A stretch of DNA of 64,000 nucleotides from the NCBI RefSeq assembly GCF_964194155.1, contig NW_027596437.1, positions 124,001 through 188,000 of the forward strand, written 5' to 3'. The number at the start of each line of letters is the position of its first letter. The first letter of the stretch is position 1. Source of the stretch: Cetorhinus maximus (taxonomy: Eukaryota). The notes beneath the pieces are model-generated. The model had not been told where the DNA came from. It saw nothing but the letters and a program-made list of their open reading frames with translations, and ran no database searches. The translations under genes and the position numbers were made by a program. Of this stretch, positions 37,246 through 49,635 are shown piece after piece.

Positions 37246-38683
37246 ATTATTTCCTTCCCTCATATTTTTTCCTCCCACCCTCCCTTCCTTCCTTCCTCCC
37301 ATACAACTAATTTCCCCAATTTATTCCTTCCATTCCTCCATCCTTCCTTCCCTTCCATTCTCCATCGTTCCTTCCTCACGCATTTCCTCTCTCACCTGCT
37401 TTTAACCTGAGAAGAGAGAGGAGGGTACCCGAGGGTTGGCCTGAGGGACAGGATTGGCTGGTTGATATCCGGTGAGATTGGCCCATGTGGTTTACATTGG
37501 GATTGGAGGTCCACTTAGCAGGAAGAGAGGAGAGGATTGGGCAGTCTTCAAAGAGGTAAGTAGAGAGGACGAGGCGGATTTATGTAGGGAAAGAATCTAG
37601 AGAGAGAGAGGGGAGGGGGCATAGCAGACTGGTGGGTTTTTGTCCCTGAGTATAATCATACCACTGCAGATCATTATCTACTGAGTAATTTAATTTTGTG
37701 TGTAGACCAGTCGACATACAATGAATGAGTTAGCAATAGTTTGGGGACCACAATTGTGTAGTTCATATCATGGCTGCTGATAGATTTCATATAATTATCT
37801 TCTCAAGGTATCGTGAACACACATCCCTCATGTGAACTGATTAATGCTTATAAATGGTCTGTGCACAATGCTTGACATACAAGAGGTTTTATTGATTTAA
37901 TAAATGTTTTGATAAGGCAGCTTTAATGGAATCAGATTAAATTACAGTTGAACATCCGGAGATGACACCTTCGCCGACCATAATCTTTACTGTTGGTCAA
38001 AGCCAACTAGATTGGATTAAGAGGCACCGTTTAAGGGGTGTTTATGTGAACATTTTAGAGAACTATTGTTCGCATTTTGGACCTGCCCATGTCCCAAAGC
38101 CTTTTTGAACAAATGACGGAAGTATCAAAGGCGGGTGCCAAATTGAACACAGCAAGATCCCGCCAACTTCAAGGCGGTTAATGACCAGATCATCTGATTT
38201 AATCCTCCCTGCGTTCCTCAATCCTGCCCTCTTGAGCATCCTCCGATTCCCATTGCTCCACCATTGGCTGCCGTGCCTTTAGCTGCCAGGTGCCCTAAGC
38301 TGTGGAATTCCTTCGCTAAACCTCTCTGACTCTCTCTCTCTCTCTCTCCTCCTTTAAGATACCCCTTAAAAACTGACCTCTCTGACCGAATTATTGGCCG
38401 CAATATCTCCTTATGTGGCTCGGTGTCAAATGTAATAATGCTCCTATGAAGCACCTTGGGACGCTTTGCCTTGCTAAAGGCGCTAGATAAATATAAGTTG
38501 TTGTTGCCGCAATTGCTTCCTTTTTACCCTTGGTGCCTGGATCGCCGGTATTGTTGCACCATTTTCCCACTTGGTTGGGGTTAAATTTTTGCCTTCTTTC
38601 CTCTGCAGGCTACTGAGGAGGCTGGAGTTCAGAGGTCGCTGCCAGTAGCTGCTCCAAACACAGCCGCCCTGAATGACTCGCAG

Positions 38684-38923
38684 ATGAGGGAGCTGGGGCC
38701 CTGGAGCAACTCGGCCGGTGAGCAATGGAGGCATCGCTACAATTTCTACGCGGCATTGCTCAGCCTCCTGATCTTCGTGGTGGTGTTTGGCCATGTGTTG
38801 ATGTGCATGGCAGTGTCCAGGGAGAGGGCACTGCAGACGACCACCAACTACCTCATCGTCAGCCTGGCTGTGGCAGACCTACTGGTGGCCACGCTGGTGA
38901 TGCCCTGGGTTGTCTATCTGGAG
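38684..38923 (+). pseudogene. drd2l: D2-type receptor coding exon 1 (N-terminus, TM1-TM2)
   Basis: [62 protein letters not shown]|gt; upstream acceptor ttcctctgcag at ~38609. Confidence 0.9.
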
Positions 38924-39183
38924 GTTAAACCGTTAGTTCGCTCCCGCTTATCGATAGGCGGGAGGGGCCCCGAAGGGCGTTGGGCCTCGCAGCTACCGAC
39001 ATCACTCCTCAGCGACCCCACCCCCCGTCATTGAGGTCCTAAGTCCTTTTCCCACTTCCCTTCCTGGAGCCAGTCACTTGTGCATCAGTCACGGCCAGAA
39101 CAAGGTCTCTCTTCTGGTCATCCATTTAGATACCAGGCGATTGGTGAACAACACAAGACTGAACTTGGCCGTATAGAAACATA

Positions 39184-39312
39184 GGCCAGGATTTTATGGC
39201 CCCTCCTGCCCGGCGGGTTATTACGGTCCTGCCGAACTAAATGGAGATTTAATTGGCTCGCCGCGTCCACTGGGGGGGAGACACGCTGCGGTGGGGCCAT
39301 AAAATCCTGGCT
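39184..39312. mobile_element. MITE (probably PIF/Harbinger-type)
   Basis: Perfect 19-bp inverted repeat GCCAGGATTTTATGGCCCC (39185-39203 / 39293-39311), inserted in a CR1 tail. Confidence 0.75.
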
Positions 39313-39860
39313 ACAGAAAATAGGAGCAGGAATAGGTCATTCGGCCCTTCAAGTCTGTTCCGCCATTCAATATGATCATTGCTGATCCTCTATCTCAACG
39401 CCACACTCCCGTGCTCTCCCCATACCCCTTGGTGCCTTTGGAGTCTAGAAATCCATCTATTTCCTTCTTAAATATACTCAGTGACTTGGCCTCCACAGCC
39501 TCTGTGGTGGAGAATTCCACAGGTTCACCACCCTCTGAGTGAAGAATTTTCTCCTCATCTCAGCCCTAAATGGCCTACCCCATTTCCTGAGACTATGACT
39601 CCTTGTTCTAGACCACCCCACCAGCCAGAGGAAACGTCATCCCTGCATCCAGTCTGTCCAGCCCTGTCAGAATTTTATACGTTTCAATGAGATCCCCTCT
39701 CATTCTTCTAAACTCCAGTGAATACAGGCCTAGTCAGCCCAATCTCTCCTCATATGACAATCCTGCCACCCCAGGAATCAGCCTAGTGAACCTTCATTGC
39801 ACTCCCTCTATGGCAATTATACCCTTTCCTAGGAAATAAGACCAAAACTGCGCACAATAG
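39313..39860 (-). mobile_element. CR1 3' fragment
   Basis: Reverse CR1 tail and ORF2 end. Confidence 0.8.
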
Positions 39861-39952
39861 GGACAGGAGCAGGCCATTCAGTCCATCGAGCCTGTTTCAC
39901 CATTAGATTGGAATGGTCCTGCACAGAAGGAGACCATTTGGCCCATCAAATG

Positions 39953-40340
39953 GAGACACAGTGGCGTAGTAGCAATGTCACTGGACTAGTAAACTGAAGG
40001 CCCTATGTAACGCTCTGGGGACATGGGTTTAAATCCCTACAAGGCAGCTGCTAGAATTTAAGTTCAATTAATAAATCAGCAATTGAAAGCTAGTCTCAGT
40101 CATGGTGACCATGAAACTATCATCAATTGTTATAAAACCCATCTGGTTCACTAATGCCCTTTAGGGAAGGAAATCTGCCGTCCTTACCCGGTCTGGCCTA
40201 CATGTCACTCCAGGCCCACAGCGATGTGGTTGACTTTTAATTTCCCTCTGAAATGGCCGAGAAAGCCAATCAGTTCAGGGGCAATTAGGGATGGGCAACA
40301 AATGCTGGCCTTGCCAGCGACGCCCACATCCCATGAAAAA
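39953..40340 (+). mobile_element. Full-length HE1-type SINE
   Basis: tRNA-like head gtggcgtagtagcaatgtcactggactagt...gggtttaaatccc; tail gggcaattagggatgggcaacaaatgctggcc. Confidence 0.85.
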
Positions 40341-41119
40341 GATAAAAAGAAAATTGAGTCTGCTGCAGATTTTTGAAAGATCAATCCAATTAATCCCCAC
40401 TCTCCCCCCACCCCCCACTGCTCTTTCCCCCGTCGCCCTGAAAATTTCTCCCCTTCCAGTATTTATCCGATTCCTCCCCTTTGAAAGTTCCTGTTGAATC
40501 TGCTTCCCCCGCCCTTTCAGGCAGCGCCTTCCAGATCACAACAACTCGCTGTGTGATTAAAAGTCGCCCTTCCTCACCTCGCCCCCTGCTGGTGACGCTC
40601 ACTTGCACCAAAGGCTTATCCGCCTCAGCAAAAGCCGTTCCCACATTGTCGTGGGCAACCCTCGGCCGCTGAACGATCGTCATGGATGGGGGATAATATT
40701 GCAGCCGTCGGGCACTCTTCTGAGTGTTGTGATCCTCCAAAGAGCGAATCTCGCAATCCCATCTCTCAATCGCTTTCATTACCACTTCAAACAAAGAAAA
40801 AGCAAACATAAGATCAGCCGGCGCAATGAAGCTATTCATTGCACAAATGATAAAATATTCATTCATTATCATCGAACTGCTAGATAATTCATTTTGTATA
40901 ATGTCTCCGCTAGATATCTAATCGCACTATTCTCACACAATCAAATCTGGAGCAAAATTAGTTTTATAGGAAATGAAAATTACTGTAATATTCTTTGCTG
41001 CAGCGCTTTCAAACTAATTTATACTTCATACTATCGAGATTGTCCACAAGCGTTTAATCTCTTCATCTTGAAATTACCCGAACTATTATTTTCGCCTTTT
41101 ATATTCTTTTCAATGGAGA

Positions 41120-41712
41120 TGTAATATCTCTATGGACCTCAGTGACTTTTAGGGGGAAGAAAGTAAATGAGAATTTATGGTAAGGGAGAATTCATGATAA
41201 GGGAATGAATTACTTAAATTAGAATCTATAGGCAGGCCAGCGCAAATCTGTAAATCAACAATTAAACAGTTAAACCAGATGAACCTTTTACACTCTCAAA
41301 CTTTGTACACCCTCAGGGTTTGCAATCACCAGCAATGTCCTGGGAGTTAGACTGGAGTCAGAGGATGGCAAGAACATATTTTAAGTGTGTTCTTCAACAG
41401 ATAGGGGAAGGACAGATGGTCCCAGCTTAGATAGGAAGGCAGGTCTCTGCCTGGGTGAAAGTAGGGTCAGATGATGCATGTACCTTTGTACCAGAGACTT
41501 GTCTGTTTAATGTAAACCTATATGTTAAGAAGATTGGAATCTGGAGGGTGTTCTTGTATGTGACCAATAATGTATAAATATGGTGAACACTTGTAGCTTA
41601 GCAGAGTACTGTCTCAAGCTGTATTGAGATGGTGCCCTCCTTGCAATTGCTCGAATAAACGATCGTAACCTGTACCTGAGTCTCCTGTGGTCCGTTCATG
41701 AAAGACACCACA
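41120..41712 (+). mobile_element. Solo LTR (ERV/Gypsy-like)
   Basis: TGTAA...CACA termini, CCAAT and TATAAA ~41564-41578, AATAAA ~41654; no clear TSD. Confidence 0.6.
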
Positions 41713-42212
41713 TCAGTGACAAATGCATAAAACGACCCAAGTGTTAAGCCAATGTTCTCCAAGTTTGATTAATGTAGGTGCAGAATAAGTGTTAGTTTCT
41801 CAACAGAAGATTGTTAAGATGATGCTATAACACATATTCAAATGATTCAAATCAACACGTTCTCTTGGCATATTTATGTTTAGAATATGAAAATGTCTAG
41901 GCTTTTTCTCTGACATGAATGAATAATTGATGTGTTATTTAATAAAAATGTCAATAAGTGCAAAACTGTCAACAGCAAAACAGCAGCAGAAAGTTTATAA
42001 TTTCAACAACAACTTTTGATTCTACAGCACCTTCAATTTAATGAAGTGTCTCCAAGGTGCCTCACAGAAGTGATTATCAAACAATATTTGACCCCAAGCC
42101 ACATCAGGAGATATGAGGGACCGGTGACCAAAAGCTCAGTCACAGAGTGAGGTTTTAAGGAACGTCTTAAAGCAGGAGAGAGTGAGAGAGAGAGATAGAA
42201 AGAGAGAGAGAT

Positions 42213-42597
42213 AGGGGCTGGAGGAGGCTCCAGAGATAGGGAGGGTTGTAGGGGGCTGGAAGAGGTTACAGAGATAGGGCGGGTTGTAGGGACTGGAGGA
42301 GGTTACAGAGATAGGGAGGGTTGTGTGGGCTGGAGGAGGTTACAGAGATAGGGAGGGTTTTAAGGACTAGAGGAGGTTACAGAGATAGGGAGGGTTGTGG
42401 GGGCTGGAGGAGCATACAGAGATAGGGAGGTTTTAGGGACTAGAGGAGGTTACAGAGTTAGGGAGGGTTGTGGGGGCTGGAGGAGGTTACAGAGATAGGG
42501 AGTGTTGTAGGGGCTGGAGGAGGTTACAGAGTTAAGGAGGGTTGTAGGGACTAGAGGAGGTTACAGAGATAAGGAGGGTTGTAGGGATTGGAGGAGG
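42213..42597. repeat. 38-bp minisatellite (~10 copies) next to a reversed L2 tail
   Basis: ggggctggaggaggttacagagatagggagggttgtag units. Confidence 0.9.
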
Positions 42598-42600
42598 AAC

Positions 42601-44674
42601 GAGTCCATTAGCAAATTCGAAAACTAATTTTTATCGACGTGGAAACAATCACACTCCTAACGATTGGCAATTTAAAAGGTGGAATGTTATTTTTGTCACA
42701 AAAAAGGACACATATTGAAACATTGCAACACAACATTAAAACAGGCTTCCAGGCAACAAAAGCCCAATGAAGTATATAGTGTGGAAGAGCCAGAAACAAC
42801 CAATTCTGACATTTAATCCTTATTCAACATGAGAGTTGGGAAGACAGAGCCAGTCACTGTCACTTTACAGGTGAATGGGAAACTCTTAATAATGGAAGTA
42901 GGCACTGGTGCTTCTACCACTGTAGTAGGAGAACACAATTTCAGATATTTAAATAAAGGTGCTCAACAATTAAATTTGGAACAAACTTCCACCAAGTTGA
43001 AAACGTACACAAGCGAAGAAATCCAGGTATAAGGTATCACCAGAGTACCTGCTTATTATAGACACCAAACAGCACAACTGCCAGTGATGGTATTAGAAGG
43101 TACAGGACCAAGCCTTCTAAGTCGAAATTGGTTGAAGGAAATTAACCTTGATTGGCCAATGAGATTTCAAAAGGAAGCAGGAAGAGTTCCTGAGTTGGAA
43201 AAGGAACAAGGCAAGGTCCTTCAGAAAGAGCCTAGAGAGTCCAAGGACCGCATCTGGATGCAAATGGAATGTGTAGCTATTCAGCAACCTGAAGAAATGA
43301 AGACTGTCTTAAACTACGACATGGAAGAACAGCAGAAGAAACTCAAGGCGACTCTGCTGAACTACAGAGTTCAAGTTGAAGCGAGTGAGTTTCACAAAGA
43401 AAAGAAAAACCCTGTTGAAAGACCCTCACACACCACAAGGATCCCTCAGGTCAAAATTTGTACCTCTGGAAAATTACGAAGAGAAGCAGGAAGAATTTAA
43501 CGTCAGTCTGAGCAAACTGAAGAACGAATTGGCACAGAAGACGCAGCAATGTTCAAGGTTCCAGGAGGAAGCCAACAGATACACGAAGGAGACAGAAGAG
43601 CTGAAGAATCAGCTGAATGAAGCTAAAGGTCGTAGACCTTTCCAAGATGCAAGTAGATAATGAAGTCATGGGTAACTCAATTACTGAACTAAGACAAGTT
43701 GAGAAATCACCTGAGAGAAGTCTGGCCGACAGTGAAGTCAAGATGAAGGCCAAGACTATACTCTGTGGTAGAAAGCAGAAGACAAAAAGGAGGAAGGTCC
43801 TGAAAAGACAATAAATGGCGAGAATGAAAAAGTTAACAGGTGATCATCGGAAACTAAACTTGCTCGTTTCCTATTTCACTACAGAACAATCCCAATTTGG
43901 AGGATAAGATGGAGAAAAGTCAAGGGAACCAAAAAGCGACTCCTGATTTGCATAGTCATGAGCAACAATTTACTGTTGGAGAAACAGTGTATGTAAGGAC
44001 TGAAGTGGTTAGCTGGTAAAGTAAGCTCTGTGACCGGACCATTGTCGTACCGTATGGAAGTGGAGGGCCGGATCACCCGTAAGCATGTGGATCATTGAGG
44101 AAGAGAGATATCCCAAGAAAATGATGTTCCACCTCTAACCATTGCTGAACCTATGGTTCCTGTTGAAGTTGCTCAACCAAGGACAGACATGCCCGATGTC
44201 TCTGTCGGAGTGGAAGACACTGAACTGCCTGTGCCTAATGAGGTAACTGATGTTAATGCGGTTCCAGAGAATATGGTTCCTGCAAAAGAATCGGAAGTCG
44301 TGGAGCTTCGACGTTCCACACAGATCAGGAAACTATCTTAAAGACTGAATTTGTAATTTCATGACCTGTGTAAATATTGTGATGGCATGAGATAAATACA
44401 AAAGGTAGAGAAAAGTTTAAGGTTGGGGGTGGGGCGGGGTGGCTACAGTAATTATAGTTCTGTTAAACGTAGGGCTGTAGCTTTAAGAATACTCATGTGT
44501 TGTAAGATCACATGACCTGTATGGACCAATGAGTTAGCAGCACGGGGACCCTCGAGGAGAGAATTCTTCTTTAGTTATAGAGTTAGATGCACACATGTAA
44601 CTGCTGCTGCCGTCTTGTAAATAAAGTTCAACGTTTCCACCAAGCAAAGCTGCCTAGAAAATCAACTCTATCAC
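42601..44674 (+). mobile_element. Non-autonomous Ty3/Gypsy element: gag knuckle, protease, captured coiled-coil fragment, integrase C-terminus, PPT and 3' LTR (~44444-44674)
   Basis: CHKKGHILKHC knuckle; VNGK...MEV[G]TGAS...GPSLLSRNWL protease; TKLARFLFHYRT...WLAGKV...GPLSY...RKHVDH; LRRST; G-rich PPT then an LTR with AATAAA ending TCACA. Confidence 0.85.
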
Positions 44675-45269
44675 ACTTTCCTTCCCGAAAGTACATCAGT
44701 GAAACAAACAGGGTATTTATGACAATGGATGATCACCATTACTGAGACTAGCTTTCAATTCCAGATTTATTAATTGAATTTAAATTCCACCTACCACTGT
44801 GGTGGGAATTGAACCCATGTCTCCCAGAGCATTAGCCTAGGCCTCTGGATTAGTAGTCCAGACATTAATGTTATGCCGCCATCTCACCTTTTAGTGACAA
44901 TCAAATATTGATAGCCCTTAGTTCTGGTCTCACCCCACAAAAATAGAAAGACTTTCGCTGCCCTATCGAAAAACCCCTTTCATCGTCTTAATCAGGTCAC
45001 CCCTCAGCTTTCTCATTTCTAGAGAAAAGAGCCCCAGCCTGTTCAGTTTTTCCTGAGAGTTATAACCTCTCGGATTTTGGCAGTGTAGGAAATGCAGAAT
45101 AGATGAAGAATAGCCTCCTTCGGCGCTGTGAAGTGCTGAGAAGATCGGAAAAAGGGGTTTAATTTCACTCCACCTGGCGGAAACTGCACAGCAACAGACT
45201 TAAAATGGTAGCGGACAACCTGCTTCTCCAGCCCTTTTGGCACCGGGTGGCGGGGCTGTGCCAGGAAGA

Positions 45270-46030
45270 ATAAAAAAGAGGCATATTATCTAAATGGTGA
45301 GAGATTGCAGAGCTCTGAGATGCAGAGGGATCTGGGTATCCTAGTGCATGAATCACAAAAGGCTAATAGCCTTTACATCAAGTAATTAGGAAGGCTAATA
45401 GAATGTTATCGTTTATTGTGAGGGGAATTGATTGTAGGGAGGTTATGCTTCAGTTCTACGGGGCACTGGTGAGACCGTATCTGGAGTACTGTGTACAGTA
45501 TTGGTCACCTTATTTAAGGAAAGGTGTCAATGCGTTAGAAGCAGTTCAGAGGATGTTTACCAGGCTAATACCAAGAATGTGTGGGTTGTCTTATGAGGAA
45601 AGGTTGGACAGGTTAGGCTTGTATCCACTGGAATTTAGATGAGTAAGAGGTGACTTGATTGAAACATTTAAGATCCCGAGCGGTCTTGACAGGGTGGATG
45701 TGGAGAGGATGTTGCCTCTTGTGGGAGAATCTAGAACGAGAGGTCACTGTTTAAAAATAAGAGGTCGCTCATTTAAGACAGAGATGAGGAGAACTTATTT
45801 CTCTCAGAGGTTCGTGAGCCTATGGAACTCTCTTCCTCAAAAGGCGGTAGATGCAGAGTCTTTGAATATTTCTAAGGCAGAGCTAGATAGATTCTTGCTT
45901 AACAAAGCGTTGAAAGGTTAACGGGGGTAGGCAGGAATGTGGGGTTGAGGTTACAATCAGATCAGCCATGATCTTATTGAATGATGGAACAGGCTCAAGG
46001 GGCCGAGTGGCCGACTCCTGCTCCTAATTC
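45270..46030 (+). mobile_element. CR1 3' fragment
   Basis: LVRPYLEYCVQYWSPYLRK...SYEERLDRLGL. Confidence 0.85.
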
Positions 46031-46429
46031 ATAATTTGTGATGTGTCCATCTGAATTCATACACATCAGCGTTCCAGTGGGGTACATGACACGCGTGTGC
46101 CATTGTCAGTGGAGTGCCCTCTGGGCTGCACAAGGGTAGCTAGACTCTTCCTCCCTCTCTTCCCTGCACCCCACCCCCCACCTCCCTCCTCAGGCCTTTA
46201 CCCACCACCCTCCCTTATTCCTCCATTACTTTTCCTGGGCTCCCTAGTTTTGGGAGGAGTGGGGCCACCGAGAACCAACGGCCAGCGAGTGGCCCTTTCA
46301 TGACTCCAGGTTCGCCAGATGTGCATTGACAAGGTTCCCCCCCTCCTCCCTGAAGCTCGATAGAGAATGGGACCCTCCCATGAGAGAGGCTGTCCCGCTT
46401 GTGATCCTGGTTGGAAATGGTAGGAAACT

Positions 46430-47360
46430 GGGAAATATTGGGATGCAGAGGGACCTGGGTGTCCTTGTACACGAATCACAGAAAGACAGCAGGTAGGTAC
46501 AGCAAGGAACTCGAAAGGTAAATGGCATGTTCGCCTTTATTGCAAACGGATTGGCATATAAAAAGTAAAGATGTCTTAAAATAATTATATAGATCTTTGG
46601 TGAGACTACACCCGAATATTGTGCACAGTTCTGGATCCCTAACCCTACCCCTTACCCCAAACCCAACCCTAACTCCCTAACCTCATCCCCAACTCCCTAT
46701 CCCTAATCCTAACTCCCTAACCCCATCCCTAACTCTCCAACCCCATCCGTAACTCCCAACTCCGGCCCTAACCCCATCCCTAACTCCGTACCTCATCCCT
46801 AACTCCCCAAACCCCACCCCTAACTGACTACCCCTAACCCTAACCCCATCCCTAACTCCCTACTCCTAACCCTAACTCCCTAACCCCATCCATAACTCTA
46901 ACTAAACTGATTCCTGGGATGAGAGGGATGTCCTATGAGGGGAGATTGAGTAGAATGGCCCCATATTCTCTGGAGTTTAGAAGAATGAGAGGTGATCTAA
47001 TTGAAATGTACAAAATTCTTCGGGGGTTTACAGGGTCGATTCTGGGAGGCTGTTAACCCCCCACCCCCTCCCCTGGCTGGGGAGTCTGGAACAATGGTGG
47101 GGGTCACAGTCTTAGGATAAGAGGTCAGCCATTTTGGACTGAGATGAGGAGAAATTTCTTCACTCAGAGGGTTGTGAATCTTTGGAATTATCTACCCCAG
47201 AGAGCTATGGATGCTCCATCATTGGGTATACTCAAGACTCAGATTGATAGATTTTTGGGCACTGAGGGTGGGAAAGTGGATTTGAAGTAGAACATCAGCC
47301 ATGATCTTAATGAATGGGTGAGGCAGGCTCGAGAGGCCGAGTGGCCTCCTCCTGCTCCTA
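46430..47360 (+). mobile_element. CR1 3' fragment interrupted by a telomere-like repeat
   Basis: CR1 sequence on both sides of 46636-46905. Confidence 0.8.
46636..46905 (-). repeat. Degenerate interstitial telomere-like repeat (CCCTAA)n
   Basis: ccctaa/cctaac variants with a higher-order ccctaactccctaaccccat unit. Confidence 0.8.
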
Positions 47361-47380
47361 TTTGTCTGGCTGTTTGCTAG

Positions 47381-47463
47381 TTCTTGGGAGTATTGTGTAC
47401 CTTTTTCCGACTGGATCAATGGAACCTCATCCTCAACCTCCCTTGGTTGTCATGGCTACAGGA
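47381..47463 (+). pseudogene. drd2l: Candidate decayed TM3 exon of the D2-type receptor
   Basis: ctag|FLGVLCTFFRLDQWNLILNLPWLSWLQ(GA)|gtacgc; LD, ILNL and the S align with CDIFVTLD...SILNLCAISIDR; phase 0 to 2 as expected. Confidence 0.45.
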
Positions 47464-47582
47464 GTACGCCATTTGGCCTATTGAACTTACTTCCCTGCTT
47501 CACTCACCACCTATTTTGGAGCTTTTTAAAGACCGTCCGGTTCATTAACAGCTCTAACCTGTTTCTTGTACACCCCTTGCAG

Positions 47583-47711
47583 GTATACAGCGGTTGCCAT
47601 GCCAATGCTCTACAATATCCAAGCGGAGAGTCACGTTGATAATAACCATGGTCAGGTTGCTGTCCTTCGCCATCTCATGCACGCTGCTCTTCGGGCTAAA
47701 AAACCACCCTG
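47583..47711 (+). pseudogene. drd2l: D2-type receptor exon (ICL2-TM4) with a frameshifting deletion
   Basis: cag|G YTAVAMPMLYN / SKRRVTLIITMVRLLSFAISCTLLFGLKNHP G|gtaag; TRYS codons reduced to one base. Confidence 0.9.
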
Positions 47712-48246
47712 GTAAGCTGTGCCCATCAAGAACCCTTCTTTCATCTTTTATTCCTCTATTGTCTCCTTCTATGGTAAGGGAGGGCCATGAGAATTCTCAC
47801 AGCAGTCCCAAGGATTGGGGACTTCAGTTATATGGAGAGACCGGATCAGCTGGGATCGTTCTCCTTAGAGTAGAGAAGGTTCAGGGGGAGATTTAATTGA
47901 GGCATGCAAAATCATGAGAGGTTTTGACAGAGTAAATAAGGAGAAAGTGTTTCCAGTGGCAGGAGGGCCGGTAACCAGAGGACCACAGATTGAAGAGAAT
48001 CGGGAAAAGAACCAGAGGGGGGGAGGAGGAGAATTTATACTCCACATGAGCCCACTCCCACCCCCTCTTTATCTCCCTCATCACCATTTCCTTCTATTCC
48101 TTTCTCCCTCATGTGTTTATCCAGCTTCCCCATTAAATACATCGATAATATTCGCCTCAACTACTCCCTGTGGGAGTGAGTTTCACATTCTCCCCCACTC
48201 TCTGGGTGAAGAAGTTTCTCCTGAATTCCCCATTGGATTTACTAGT

Positions 48247-48574
48247 TGTTGCCGTATGCTGATAGTGCTGGTATCCCACCACTGCCAACCATATTGTATT
48301 ATGGTGCGCAGTGGTGTCTCAACGATGCAACATTGAGACTTGTAGATTTAAACATGAACTCTTTATCTACTTATAGATCTCAGGTTACTGTCATGCATGG
48401 CGCTGCTACCTCCATGCAGGCTGGTTCCAGAGTGTTCTCTCTAGACTGTTCTCTCAGTCTGTTACCATGTGACTTTATACATCATACCATGGGTGGTGCT
48501 ATTCTCCAGTTCCTCTCTGACCCTTACTCTGCCGAGCACCTTTACATTACAGTGGCATGCAGGTACATACAACA
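48247..48574 (-). mobile_element. Solo LTR with 5-bp TSD, inserted in a CR1
   Basis: TGTTG...CAACA termini; CTAGT at 48242-48246 and 48575-48579. Confidence 0.85.
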
Positions 48575-48896
48575 CTAGTGACTATCTTATATTGATGGCT
48601 GTCTAGTTCTGGTCTCCTACCAGCCTTACCCTCCCCCACCCCACCCAAAAAGTGGAAACAACTTCTCTAGGTTCACCCTGTCAAAACTCTTTCATAGTTT
48701 TAAAGGCTTCTATCAGGTCACCCCTCAGCCTTCTCTTTTCTAGAGGAAAGAGCCCCAGCCTGTTCAGTCTTGCCTGGTATTTATAAGCTCGTAATTCGAG
48801 TGCCATCTTTGTGAACCTTTAGTTACAACTTCCCTAGTGACTCAATGACAGCTTTTGCAATTATGGAGACCAGGAATGTGCTCTGTCCTCTTCCAG

Positions 48897-49096
48897 ATAA
48901 AAGGGAAGAGACCATATGTGCTATCATGAACCCTTTTTTCATCTTATATTCTTCTATTGTCTCCTTCTACGTTCCCTTCATCGTGATGCTGTTAGTTTAT
49001 GTCCAGATCTGTGCCATGCTGAGACAGAGGAGGAAGCGCGTGGCAGCTAAGAGGTTCAGCGTTGCCATGGATCATGAAACCAAACCGCCCATAAAG
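48897..49096 (+). pseudogene. drd2l: D2-type receptor exon (ECL2-TM5-ICL3 start)
   Basis: ttccag|..CAIMNPFFILYSSIVSFYVPFIVMLLVYVQI...RRKRV...PPIK|gt. Confidence 0.9.
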
Positions 49097-49635
49097 GTCG
49101 GAAGAGTAAATAACAAGCTCAAATATTAAAATGAGGGGATGTGCGTAGTGGGCGTGGTGTAAGTGACTGACCTTTAACCTCTAGACGCCGCAATTAAATC
49201 CTGCCCAAGTTCGCTTTGTGTAGAGGCTGCACGGGTTCAATTCGACATGGGTTAGAGTGGCTTCGATCCATTTTGTATCAGACACGCTGCCATGATGCAG
49301 AGTTGCTTTCAACCTGCCATTTAAGGGAGGATACAGGATGACTGAGGAAGTGATGTCACCACAACTATAGGATGTTGGTCATTTGTAGGAGGCTGCAGAT
49401 CGGCAGATTGGTATAGAGGGAAATGTACATCTAACCGCGTGCTGTACCTGTCCTGGGAGTGTTTGGTGGGGACAGTGTAGAGGGAGCTTTACTCTGTATC
49501 TAACCCCGTGCTGTACCTGTCCTGGGAGTGTTTGGAAGGGACAGTGTCTTGCTTTATTATTTAAAAAACATGCTATTCAGGGTGAAATTTCCTTGTGCAA
49601 TATTACTGTGCGTATCACACAATCATATTCCACCT

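What the first reader, a model, noticed from the sequence alone, without database searches (positions are those of the whole stretch)
43198..43810. Gypsy LTR element has replaced its RT/RNase H with a captured UACA-like host coiled-coil segment
Seen: the Gypsy protease (to ~43197) and integrase C-terminus (from ~43820) are separated by ~600 bp of non-retroelement, intronless, lightly frameshifted coiled-coil sequence: EEMKTVLNYDMEEQQKKLKATLLNYRVQVE..FHKE / SKFVPLENYEEKQEEFNVSLSKLKNELAQKTQQCSRFQEEANRYTKETEELKNQL. From memory this aligns residue by residue with the UACA coiled coil (ILANYRKGQEE..LHAE; KYAPIVSFEECERKF...LKDQLSEQTQKYSVSEEEVKKNKQENDKLKKEI). Inference: retrovirus-style transduction of a host mRNA fragment into a non-autonomous LTR element that keeps its PPT and LTR. 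It may have amplified as a chimeric family.
Basis: partly seen in the sequence, partly recalled or inferred. Interest (0 to 1): 0.8.

Follow-up and report, generated by a model that had tools for sequence, protein, structure and literature searches.

The report
Shark retrotransposons relay captured coiled-coil genes
In a shark genome, over 1,300 copies of a jumping-gene family carry pieces of two host genes (UACA and EEA1) in place of their reverse transcriptase, and these pieces were likely passed on from a second family that strings together fragments of four host coiled-coil genes.

Summary
The window copy belongs to a non-autonomous Gypsy family (A, Mag-like, 1,311 junction matches). A host cassette replaces about 2.1 kb of its parent: RT, RNase H, and the integrase zinc finger and core. 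The cassette is two UACA pieces joined over a 450-nt deletion, plus part of an EEA1 exon.

A likely did not take it from the host. A second LTR family (B, at least 193 copies) reads gagN-EEA1-UACA-EEA1-ninein-TPR-integrase tail. B shares A's UACA end-point, EEA1 piece, 450-nt deletion and derived sites, and A nests inside B. The TPR and EEA1 pieces lack introns, so they came from mRNA. The UACA piece lies in one exon and cannot show this. Catshark proteins carry B's joins, so the cassette is likely old.

All 13 joins shared by three or more copies are in frame, against 17 of 25 private ones (p=0.03). Amino-acid constraint is borderline (ratio 0.5-0.6, p about 0.05). The fusion was likely a translated, weakly constrained tail; no function is shown. 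The mechanism is known (LTR-mediated retroposition, maize Bs1); the all-coiled-coil cargo, relay and scale appear new.

The parts
42178..42597 (.). 37-bp minisatellite standing where this copy's 5' LTR and early gag would be
   Evidence: D6; the window matches natural copy L051 only from its position 967
42595..43145 (+). gag C-terminal part and aspartic protease from the autonomous parent (broken in this copy)
   Evidence: 77-81% nt to natural parent L115; weak gag-asp_proteas hit
43146..43257 (+). diverged stub of the parent's protease end / RT start; not host-derived
43258..43608 (+). UACA piece 1 (host large exon, aa about 905-1025)
   Evidence: 75.7% nt to host exon at G000:C27
43600..43690 (+). 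UACA piece 2 (aa about 1174-1210), joined to piece 1 across a 450-nt deletion at a 9-nt microhomology (43600-43608)
   Evidence: same deletion in B3 copies
43686..43754 (+). piece of an EEA1 exon, shared with family B
   Evidence: 49 of 69 nt to the exon at G000:C12:57.06 Mb; 43258-43754 aligns in one block to B3 copy L172 at 72.5%
43755..43814 (+). A-specific Lys/Arg-rich tail after a shared one-base shift, ending in a stop at the integrase junction
43817..44341 (+). integrase C-terminal remnant, behind the stop
   Evidence: 82-84% nt to parent L115
44411..44443 (+). altered polypurine tract
   Evidence: read from the sequence; compare intact tracts
44444..44675 (+). 3' LTR (about 232 bp, termini worn)
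   Evidence: 82-85% to LTRs of L051 and L115

Best explanation
The segment is a host-derived UACA+EEA1 cassette that replaces RT, RNase H and most of integrase in an amplified non-autonomous Gypsy family (A), and it was likely acquired by template switching onto the RNA of a second LTR family (B) rather than onto host mRNA. Shown: the structures of A, its parent and B; four host donors; intron loss in the TPR and EEA1 pieces; junctions shared by A and B. Inferred order: B first captured spliced EEA1 mRNA; UACA then replaced its middle; ninein and TPR were added (their timing is not resolved); deletions made subfamilies; one subfamily (B3) was co-packaged with A's parent, and a double switch moved about 500 nt into it. 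Inferred cause of the all-coiled-coil cargo: purine-rich Glu/Lys/Gln/Leu codons give frequent, mostly in-frame microhomologies, so one captured coil invites the next. Inferred function: the single gag-protease frame runs into the cassette, so it was likely translated as a weakly constrained tail, with an open frame mildly favoured in source elements and no UACA-specific role. A would be mobilised in trans by its parent.
For: Parent has the same LTR, gag, protease and integrase tail plus about 2.1 kb with RT, RNase H, H2C2 and rve (22 of 40 integrase-selected loci). A and B share only the cassette. They leave UACA at the same base and continue into the same EEA1 piece. 9 of 20 further B copies carry the same 450-nt deletion (exact spacing in 5, within 1-9 nt in 3, interrupted in 1). 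31 sites group A with B against the host, 4 group A with the host; 6 amino-acid changes are shared by A and B against host and outgroups. A is one clade (support 100) nested in B. Six TPR exon joins are crossed without gaps in 11/12, 4/4, 10/11, 11/11, 10/11 and 9/9 spanning copies. After the EEA1 exon end 13 of 19 copies continue with the next exon's letters, none with the intron's. Shared joins are in frame 13 of 13 against 17 of 25 private (p=0.034). No stop among 855 commonest-codon columns. Captured pieces are 62-70% A+G against 54% for RT.
Against: 54-100% of repeat pairs of 6-10 nt in these exons are in frame anyway, so in-frame joins are weak evidence of selection. Amino-acid constraint shrinks after correcting for transitions: pooled ratio 0.64 (p=0.047) or 0.53 (p=0.051), A's UACA alone 0.80 (p=0.62), and A's untranslated integrase tail gives 0.61, a similar value. 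The gag-to-cassette frame in B is not shown (4 of 14 in frame). The B1 subset has 2 stop columns of 339. A carries a shared frameshift in the EEA1 piece. The 450-nt deletion sits on a 9-nt repeat and could recur, and only one site separates B3 from other B. No autonomous parent of B turned up among 20 loci.
Confidence: 0.75

Rival explanations
1. Functional coil: the captured coiled coil stands in for RT as the dimerising module behind the protease (A), or as a Gag multimerising tail (B), and was selected for this. It would help the parasite or interfere with autonomous elements.
For: The cassette sits exactly where RT sat, in frame. All four donors are long coiled coils. Nonsynonymous changes between A and B are fewer than neutral (ratio 0.43, p=0.051). 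A leucine zipper placed after HIV-1 protease enhances Gag cleavage (PMC3291649, abstract). A contig with the A/B3-type junction occurs in three RNA-guessed runs of two other species.
Against: Constraint is far weaker than on RT (0.22) or gag (0.27-0.33). Repeated deletions removed large parts of the coil. A's branch is long (0.11-0.14 substitutions per site).
Confidence: 0.2
2. Fully neutral filler: the cassette was never usefully translated. In-frame joins come from codon-phased microhomology alone, and copy number reflects a compact element that kept its cis signals.
For: High in-frame null; 17 of 25 private joins are in frame; single-segment tests are mostly not significant.
Against: No stops in 855 columns although stops make up 73 of 962 private single-base changes; shared small indels are 2 of 2 in frame against 30 of 170 private; the pooled signal is confined to the true frame (shifted frames 0.89-1.2).
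Confidence: 0.3
3. Independent captures: A took UACA straight from host mRNA, and B did so separately.
For: A and B have different LTRs and primer sites.
Against: It would need the same UACA end-point, the same EEA1 continuation, the same deletion and 31 shared sites twice over.
Confidence: 0.03
4. Camouflage: carrying pieces of essential host mRNAs makes small-RNA silencing of the element costly to the host, which favoured spread.
For: The idea is stated for plants in PMC13317346 (passage). All pieces are in sense orientation and the donors are single-copy genes.
Against: A's piece is only about 76% identical to the host, too far for much cross-targeting. It does not explain the coiled-coil bias. 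No small-RNA data were examined.
Confidence: 0.07

Closest known systems
LTR-mediated retroposition in animals (PMC5131818; passages read)
   Same: Internal ORFs replaced by partial mRNA copies, microsimilarity at the switch points, two or more parental genes (one case with four genes and an Alu), further rounds as non-autonomous elements.
   Different: The passages I read describe young, low-copy retrocopies. Here the chimeras are old families of hundreds to over a thousand copies, the donors are all coiled-coil genes joined in frame, and part of the cargo moved to a second family.
Maize Bs1 (via review PMC13317346; passages read)
   Same: An LTR element with pieces of three host genes forming a hybrid frame.
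   Different: Plant element with unrelated enzyme donors. Here there are four donors of one structural class, fused to gag or gag-protease, in a vertebrate.
Mag-lineage Ty3/Gypsy elements (PMC3286476 table and text; PMC5408684 passages)
   Same: tRNA-Ser or tRNA-Leu primer sites, 5-bp target duplications, short LTRs, about 4.6 kb, gag and pol in one frame.
   Different: No RT tree with named Mag references was built; A and B have no RT.
ORF exchange between retroelement types in bdelloid rotifers (PMC5408684; passages) and BARE-2/Wis-2 switching (PMC13317346)
   Same: Sequence passed between different retroelements.
   Different: There the cargo is enzymatic ORFs or LTR pieces; here it is recognisable host exons.

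Membership tests
Ty3/Gypsy LTR retrotransposon (parent of A) | order PR-RT-RNase H-IN | tested here: met
   Pfam on 9 natural frames from 7 parent loci, positions; best PDB hits are Ty3 RT
Ty3/Gypsy LTR retrotransposon (A) | two LTRs with target-site duplication | tested here: met
   24 of 37 A copies have two LTRs; 5-bp duplication in 11 of 24, none found in 9. The window copy itself has only the 3' LTR.
Mag lineage | primer site for tRNA-Ser or tRNA-Leu, 5-bp duplication, short LTRs | tested here: met
   A: tRNA-Ser(GCT) 3' end; B: tRNA-Leu 3' end; B duplication of 5 bp in 3 of 10
Mag lineage | gag and pol in one frame with a CCHC knuckle | tested here: met
   natural frames L113 and L118 run from the knuckle through the protease
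Mag lineage | placement in an RT tree with named Mag elements | not tested
   no named references on hand; the label rests on the features above and on recall
LTR-mediated retrocopy (template-switch capture) | intron loss | tested here: met
   TPR: six joins; EEA1. Not testable for UACA and ninein, each within one exon
LTR-mediated retrocopy (template-switch capture) | microhomology at switch points, no own poly-A or target duplication | tested here: met
   overlaps of 5-8 nt at ninein/TPR and UACA/ninein joins, 3-13 nt exact repeats at deletions; no poly-A seen at either end of the cassette
LTR-mediated retrocopy (template-switch capture) | further amplification as a non-autonomous element | tested here: met
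   1,311 and 193 junction matches, controls 0
Functional chimeric gene (Bs1-like) | transcribed and translated hybrid frame under purifying selection | tested here: inconclusive
   borderline ratios; junction contigs only in runs guessed to be RNA; translation not testable
Independent L1-type UACA retrocopy inserted into an LTR element | poly-A tail, own target duplication, host element left intact | tested here: not met
   2.1 kb of parent is replaced, not interrupted

The most novel reading that the evidence does not exclude
Shark LTR parasites assembled, by serial mRNA capture, a selected synthetic coiled coil from four host genes, fused it to Gag, and passed a module of it to another family, where it took over RT's place as the protease-dimerising domain. 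A copy of this chimera may still be expressed, or domesticated, across shark species.
Probability: 0.2. Interest if true: 0.9.

Novelty: new variant of a known kind. Interest (0 to 1): 0.7.

Why it matters
It is a dated natural record of serial in-frame exon shuffling by LTR elements in a vertebrate, with thousands of copies to test two open points: whether capture partners are chosen by sequence composition, and whether host cargo can be selected inside a non-autonomous element. It shows host sequence passing between LTR families with different primers. In practice, these copies yield false UACA, EEA1, ninein and TPR paralogues in shark annotations; four catshark hypothetical proteins are such copies.

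Tried and rejected
Pfam and the ESM Atlas gave only generic coil hits for the UACA part; PDB gave nothing specific. A word-seeded protein search missed ninein; the exhaustive search found it. The Atlas did not identify the gag-to-UACA stretch, later found to be EEA1. My first selection estimates (ratios 0.2-0.55, pooled p=0.0001) were inflated by transition bias and are replaced. My early reading of 7 of 7 in-frame deletions against a one-third null was dropped. The two-copy complex prediction gave no answer. No holder on record as RNA was listed. No autonomous parent of B was found among 20 loci. No FYVE exon was found in the stretches scanned. The count of dopamine-receptor copies failed. 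Earlier scan findings: none. Three near-twins of the window copy (L066-L068) were left out of the statistics from then on, as duplicates of one insertion.

Full report
Setting. The window is G000:C379:124001-188000 in a 4.0-Gb genome. The host UACA large exon is 94.7% identical in protein to Carcharodon UACA, so the organism is a shark near that genus (inference). The element lies in an intron of a D2-dopamine-receptor-like gene (exon frames). Twelve near-twins at 91-96% are segmental duplicates: all 6 tested share flanks with the window.

Observation. The segment is UACA-derived. Only five shark UACA proteins match among 1,489 candidates. It is two pieces, aa about 905-1025 and 1174-1210, joined at a 9-nt repeat with 450 nt missing. 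The host gene is at C27:11.43-11.45 Mb, and every captured piece lies within its single 2.7-kb exon, so the lack of introns says nothing for UACA.

Family A. Natural full copies are about 3.1 kb with 232-bp LTRs. 24 of 37 have both LTRs (median identity 86%) and 11 of these 24 show 5-bp target duplications. The primer site matches the 3' end of the genome's tRNA-Ser(GCT). A 28-mer across the deletion junction matches 1,311 places (reversed control 0). It hits 33 of 37 A, 0 of 17 B, 0 of 24 parent and 0 of 9 B3 copies. Of 40 loci chosen by the integrase tail (20 for long frames, 20 others, out of 150 listed), 13 carry UACA, 22 have a middle of about 2.1 kb instead, and 5 are partial. That middle holds RT, RNase H, the H2C2 finger and the rve core. 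The chimera keeps a diverged RT-start stub, then the cassette, a basic tail and a stop at the integrase junction. Outside the cassette A is almost the parent: 1 of 116, 9 of 198 and 1 of 182 codon columns differ in gag N, gag C/protease and the integrase tail. Contigs of two other species cover the whole stretch, and one in organism C bridges the stub-UACA join.

Family B. Searching with the part of UACA that A lacks returned 170 matches from 150 scored candidates. They belong to another LTR family of about 4.0-4.6 kb with a tRNA-Leu primer site; LTR pairs are 80% identical (10 of 37 copies). A junction 26-mer gives 193 matches with recall 10 of 17. The order is gag N-terminus, EEA1, UACA, EEA1, ninein, TPR, integrase tail. 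The gag and tail labels rest on weak similarity (31% to A's gag) and on recall. TPR: Pfam above cut-off in 3 of 9 frames given, the sole protein hit, host gene at C18, and six exon joins crossed without gaps. Ninein: 53% to ray ninein and 74-84% nt to 270 nt of the host exon at C19. EEA1: a loose end in RNA-guessed contigs led to one locus at C12. B copies match its exon at 79-87%, and a downstream exon of the same run of exons matches EEA1 in PDB 1JOC (E 2e-15). That the captured exons belong to the same gene is inferred from order, strand and the contig's continuation into the next exon. Two upstream exons are hit in 17 and 29 of 37 copies and adjoin without their intron of about 510 nt. EEA1 flanks UACA on both sides, which suggests UACA replaced its middle.

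Relay. A and B share only the cassette. They leave UACA at the same base and enter the same EEA1 piece. Nine of 20 further B copies already have the 450-nt deletion. Sites group A with B 31 times and A with the host 4 times. A is one clade nested among B3 copies, with support 73-91 on short branches. Only 10 of 37 A copies hit the EEA1 exon directly by BLAST; the link there rests on the block alignment to B and a local alignment.

Age. At 6 codons A and B keep the state of most other sharks while the host has changed; Carcharodon shares the host's change at 5. One Scyliorhinus torazame hypothetical protein shows UACA, the linker and ninein in B's order, and three more match B's linker region at 53-63%. 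The cassette therefore likely predates the split of these shark orders (Mesozoic, from recall), unless it moved horizontally.

Selection. For: 13 of 13 joins shared by three or more of 37 B copies are in frame against 17 of 25 private (p=0.034); two joins seen in only two copies are out of frame. No stop appears among 855 commonest-codon columns, and shared small indels are 2 of 2 in frame against 30 of 170. Against: short repeats in these exons are in frame 54-100% of the time. After stratifying by transitions the pooled ratio is 0.64 (p=0.047) or 0.53 (p=0.051), A's UACA alone 0.80, and A versus B 0.43 (p=0.051). Controls are 0.22 for RT, 0.70-1.25 for non-coding DNA and 0.61 for A's untranslated integrase tail. 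B's gag-to-cassette frame is unresolved (4 of 14). I read this as a translated, weakly constrained tail. A dimerising role is a live but untested alternative, suggested by PMC3291649 (abstract and outline only).

Expression. In runs guessed to be RNA, a contig with the A/B3-type junction has depth 29-172 in X16, X19 and X20, with the same joint letters in two species. These are contigs of unrecorded library type, so transcription is a hint only.

Literature. I read passages of PMC5131818, PMC13317346, PMC5408684 and PMC3286476, and no supplements; the supplementary tables of PMC5131818 list its animal cases and could bear on how unusual this is. Searches (listings only) showed no report of these elements. 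Repeat libraries such as Repbase and Dfam could not be searched and may hold them without annotation.

Verdict. The mechanism is known. The cargo of four coiled-coil genes joined in frame, its passage between families, its copy number and its age make this a new variant. Interest 0.7.

Noticed in passing
window 38585-49129; twins on G000 C24 (8 places, 6-25 Mb), C580, C1508, C307, C256: The D2-dopamine-receptor-like gene lies in a segmental duplicate with at least 12 near-twins at 91-96%, which points to a DRD2-like gene expansion. Only flanks were compared (6 of 12); the exon count failed.
   Followed up: partly
runs X16, X19, X20 laid on L048:4825-5428: A high-depth contig with the A/B3-type UACA junction and the same joint letters in two species; possibly one expressed or domesticated locus. 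Not located in G000.
   Followed up: no
window about 41120-41711: A TG...CA-bounded stretch of about 590 bp that looks like a solo LTR of another family; most of it is missing from twin L067.
   Followed up: partly
L034, L036, L037 (family B): A subfamily with an extra copy of the UACA-end/EEA1/ninein-start block placed before the main UACA piece, an internal rearrangement.
   Followed up: partly
L121-L130, L083-L090: A second A subfamily whose cassette joins integrase about 105 nt further downstream.
   Followed up: partly
G000 C24:37-65 Mb: 33 of 44 exact matches to a tRNA-Leu 3' end lie on C24, the contig that also holds the receptor duplicates.
   Followed up: no
Scyliorhinus torazame GCB69511.1, GCB74008.1, GCB72304.1, GCB71637.1: Annotated hypothetical proteins that appear to be fragments of family B copies.
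   Followed up: partly
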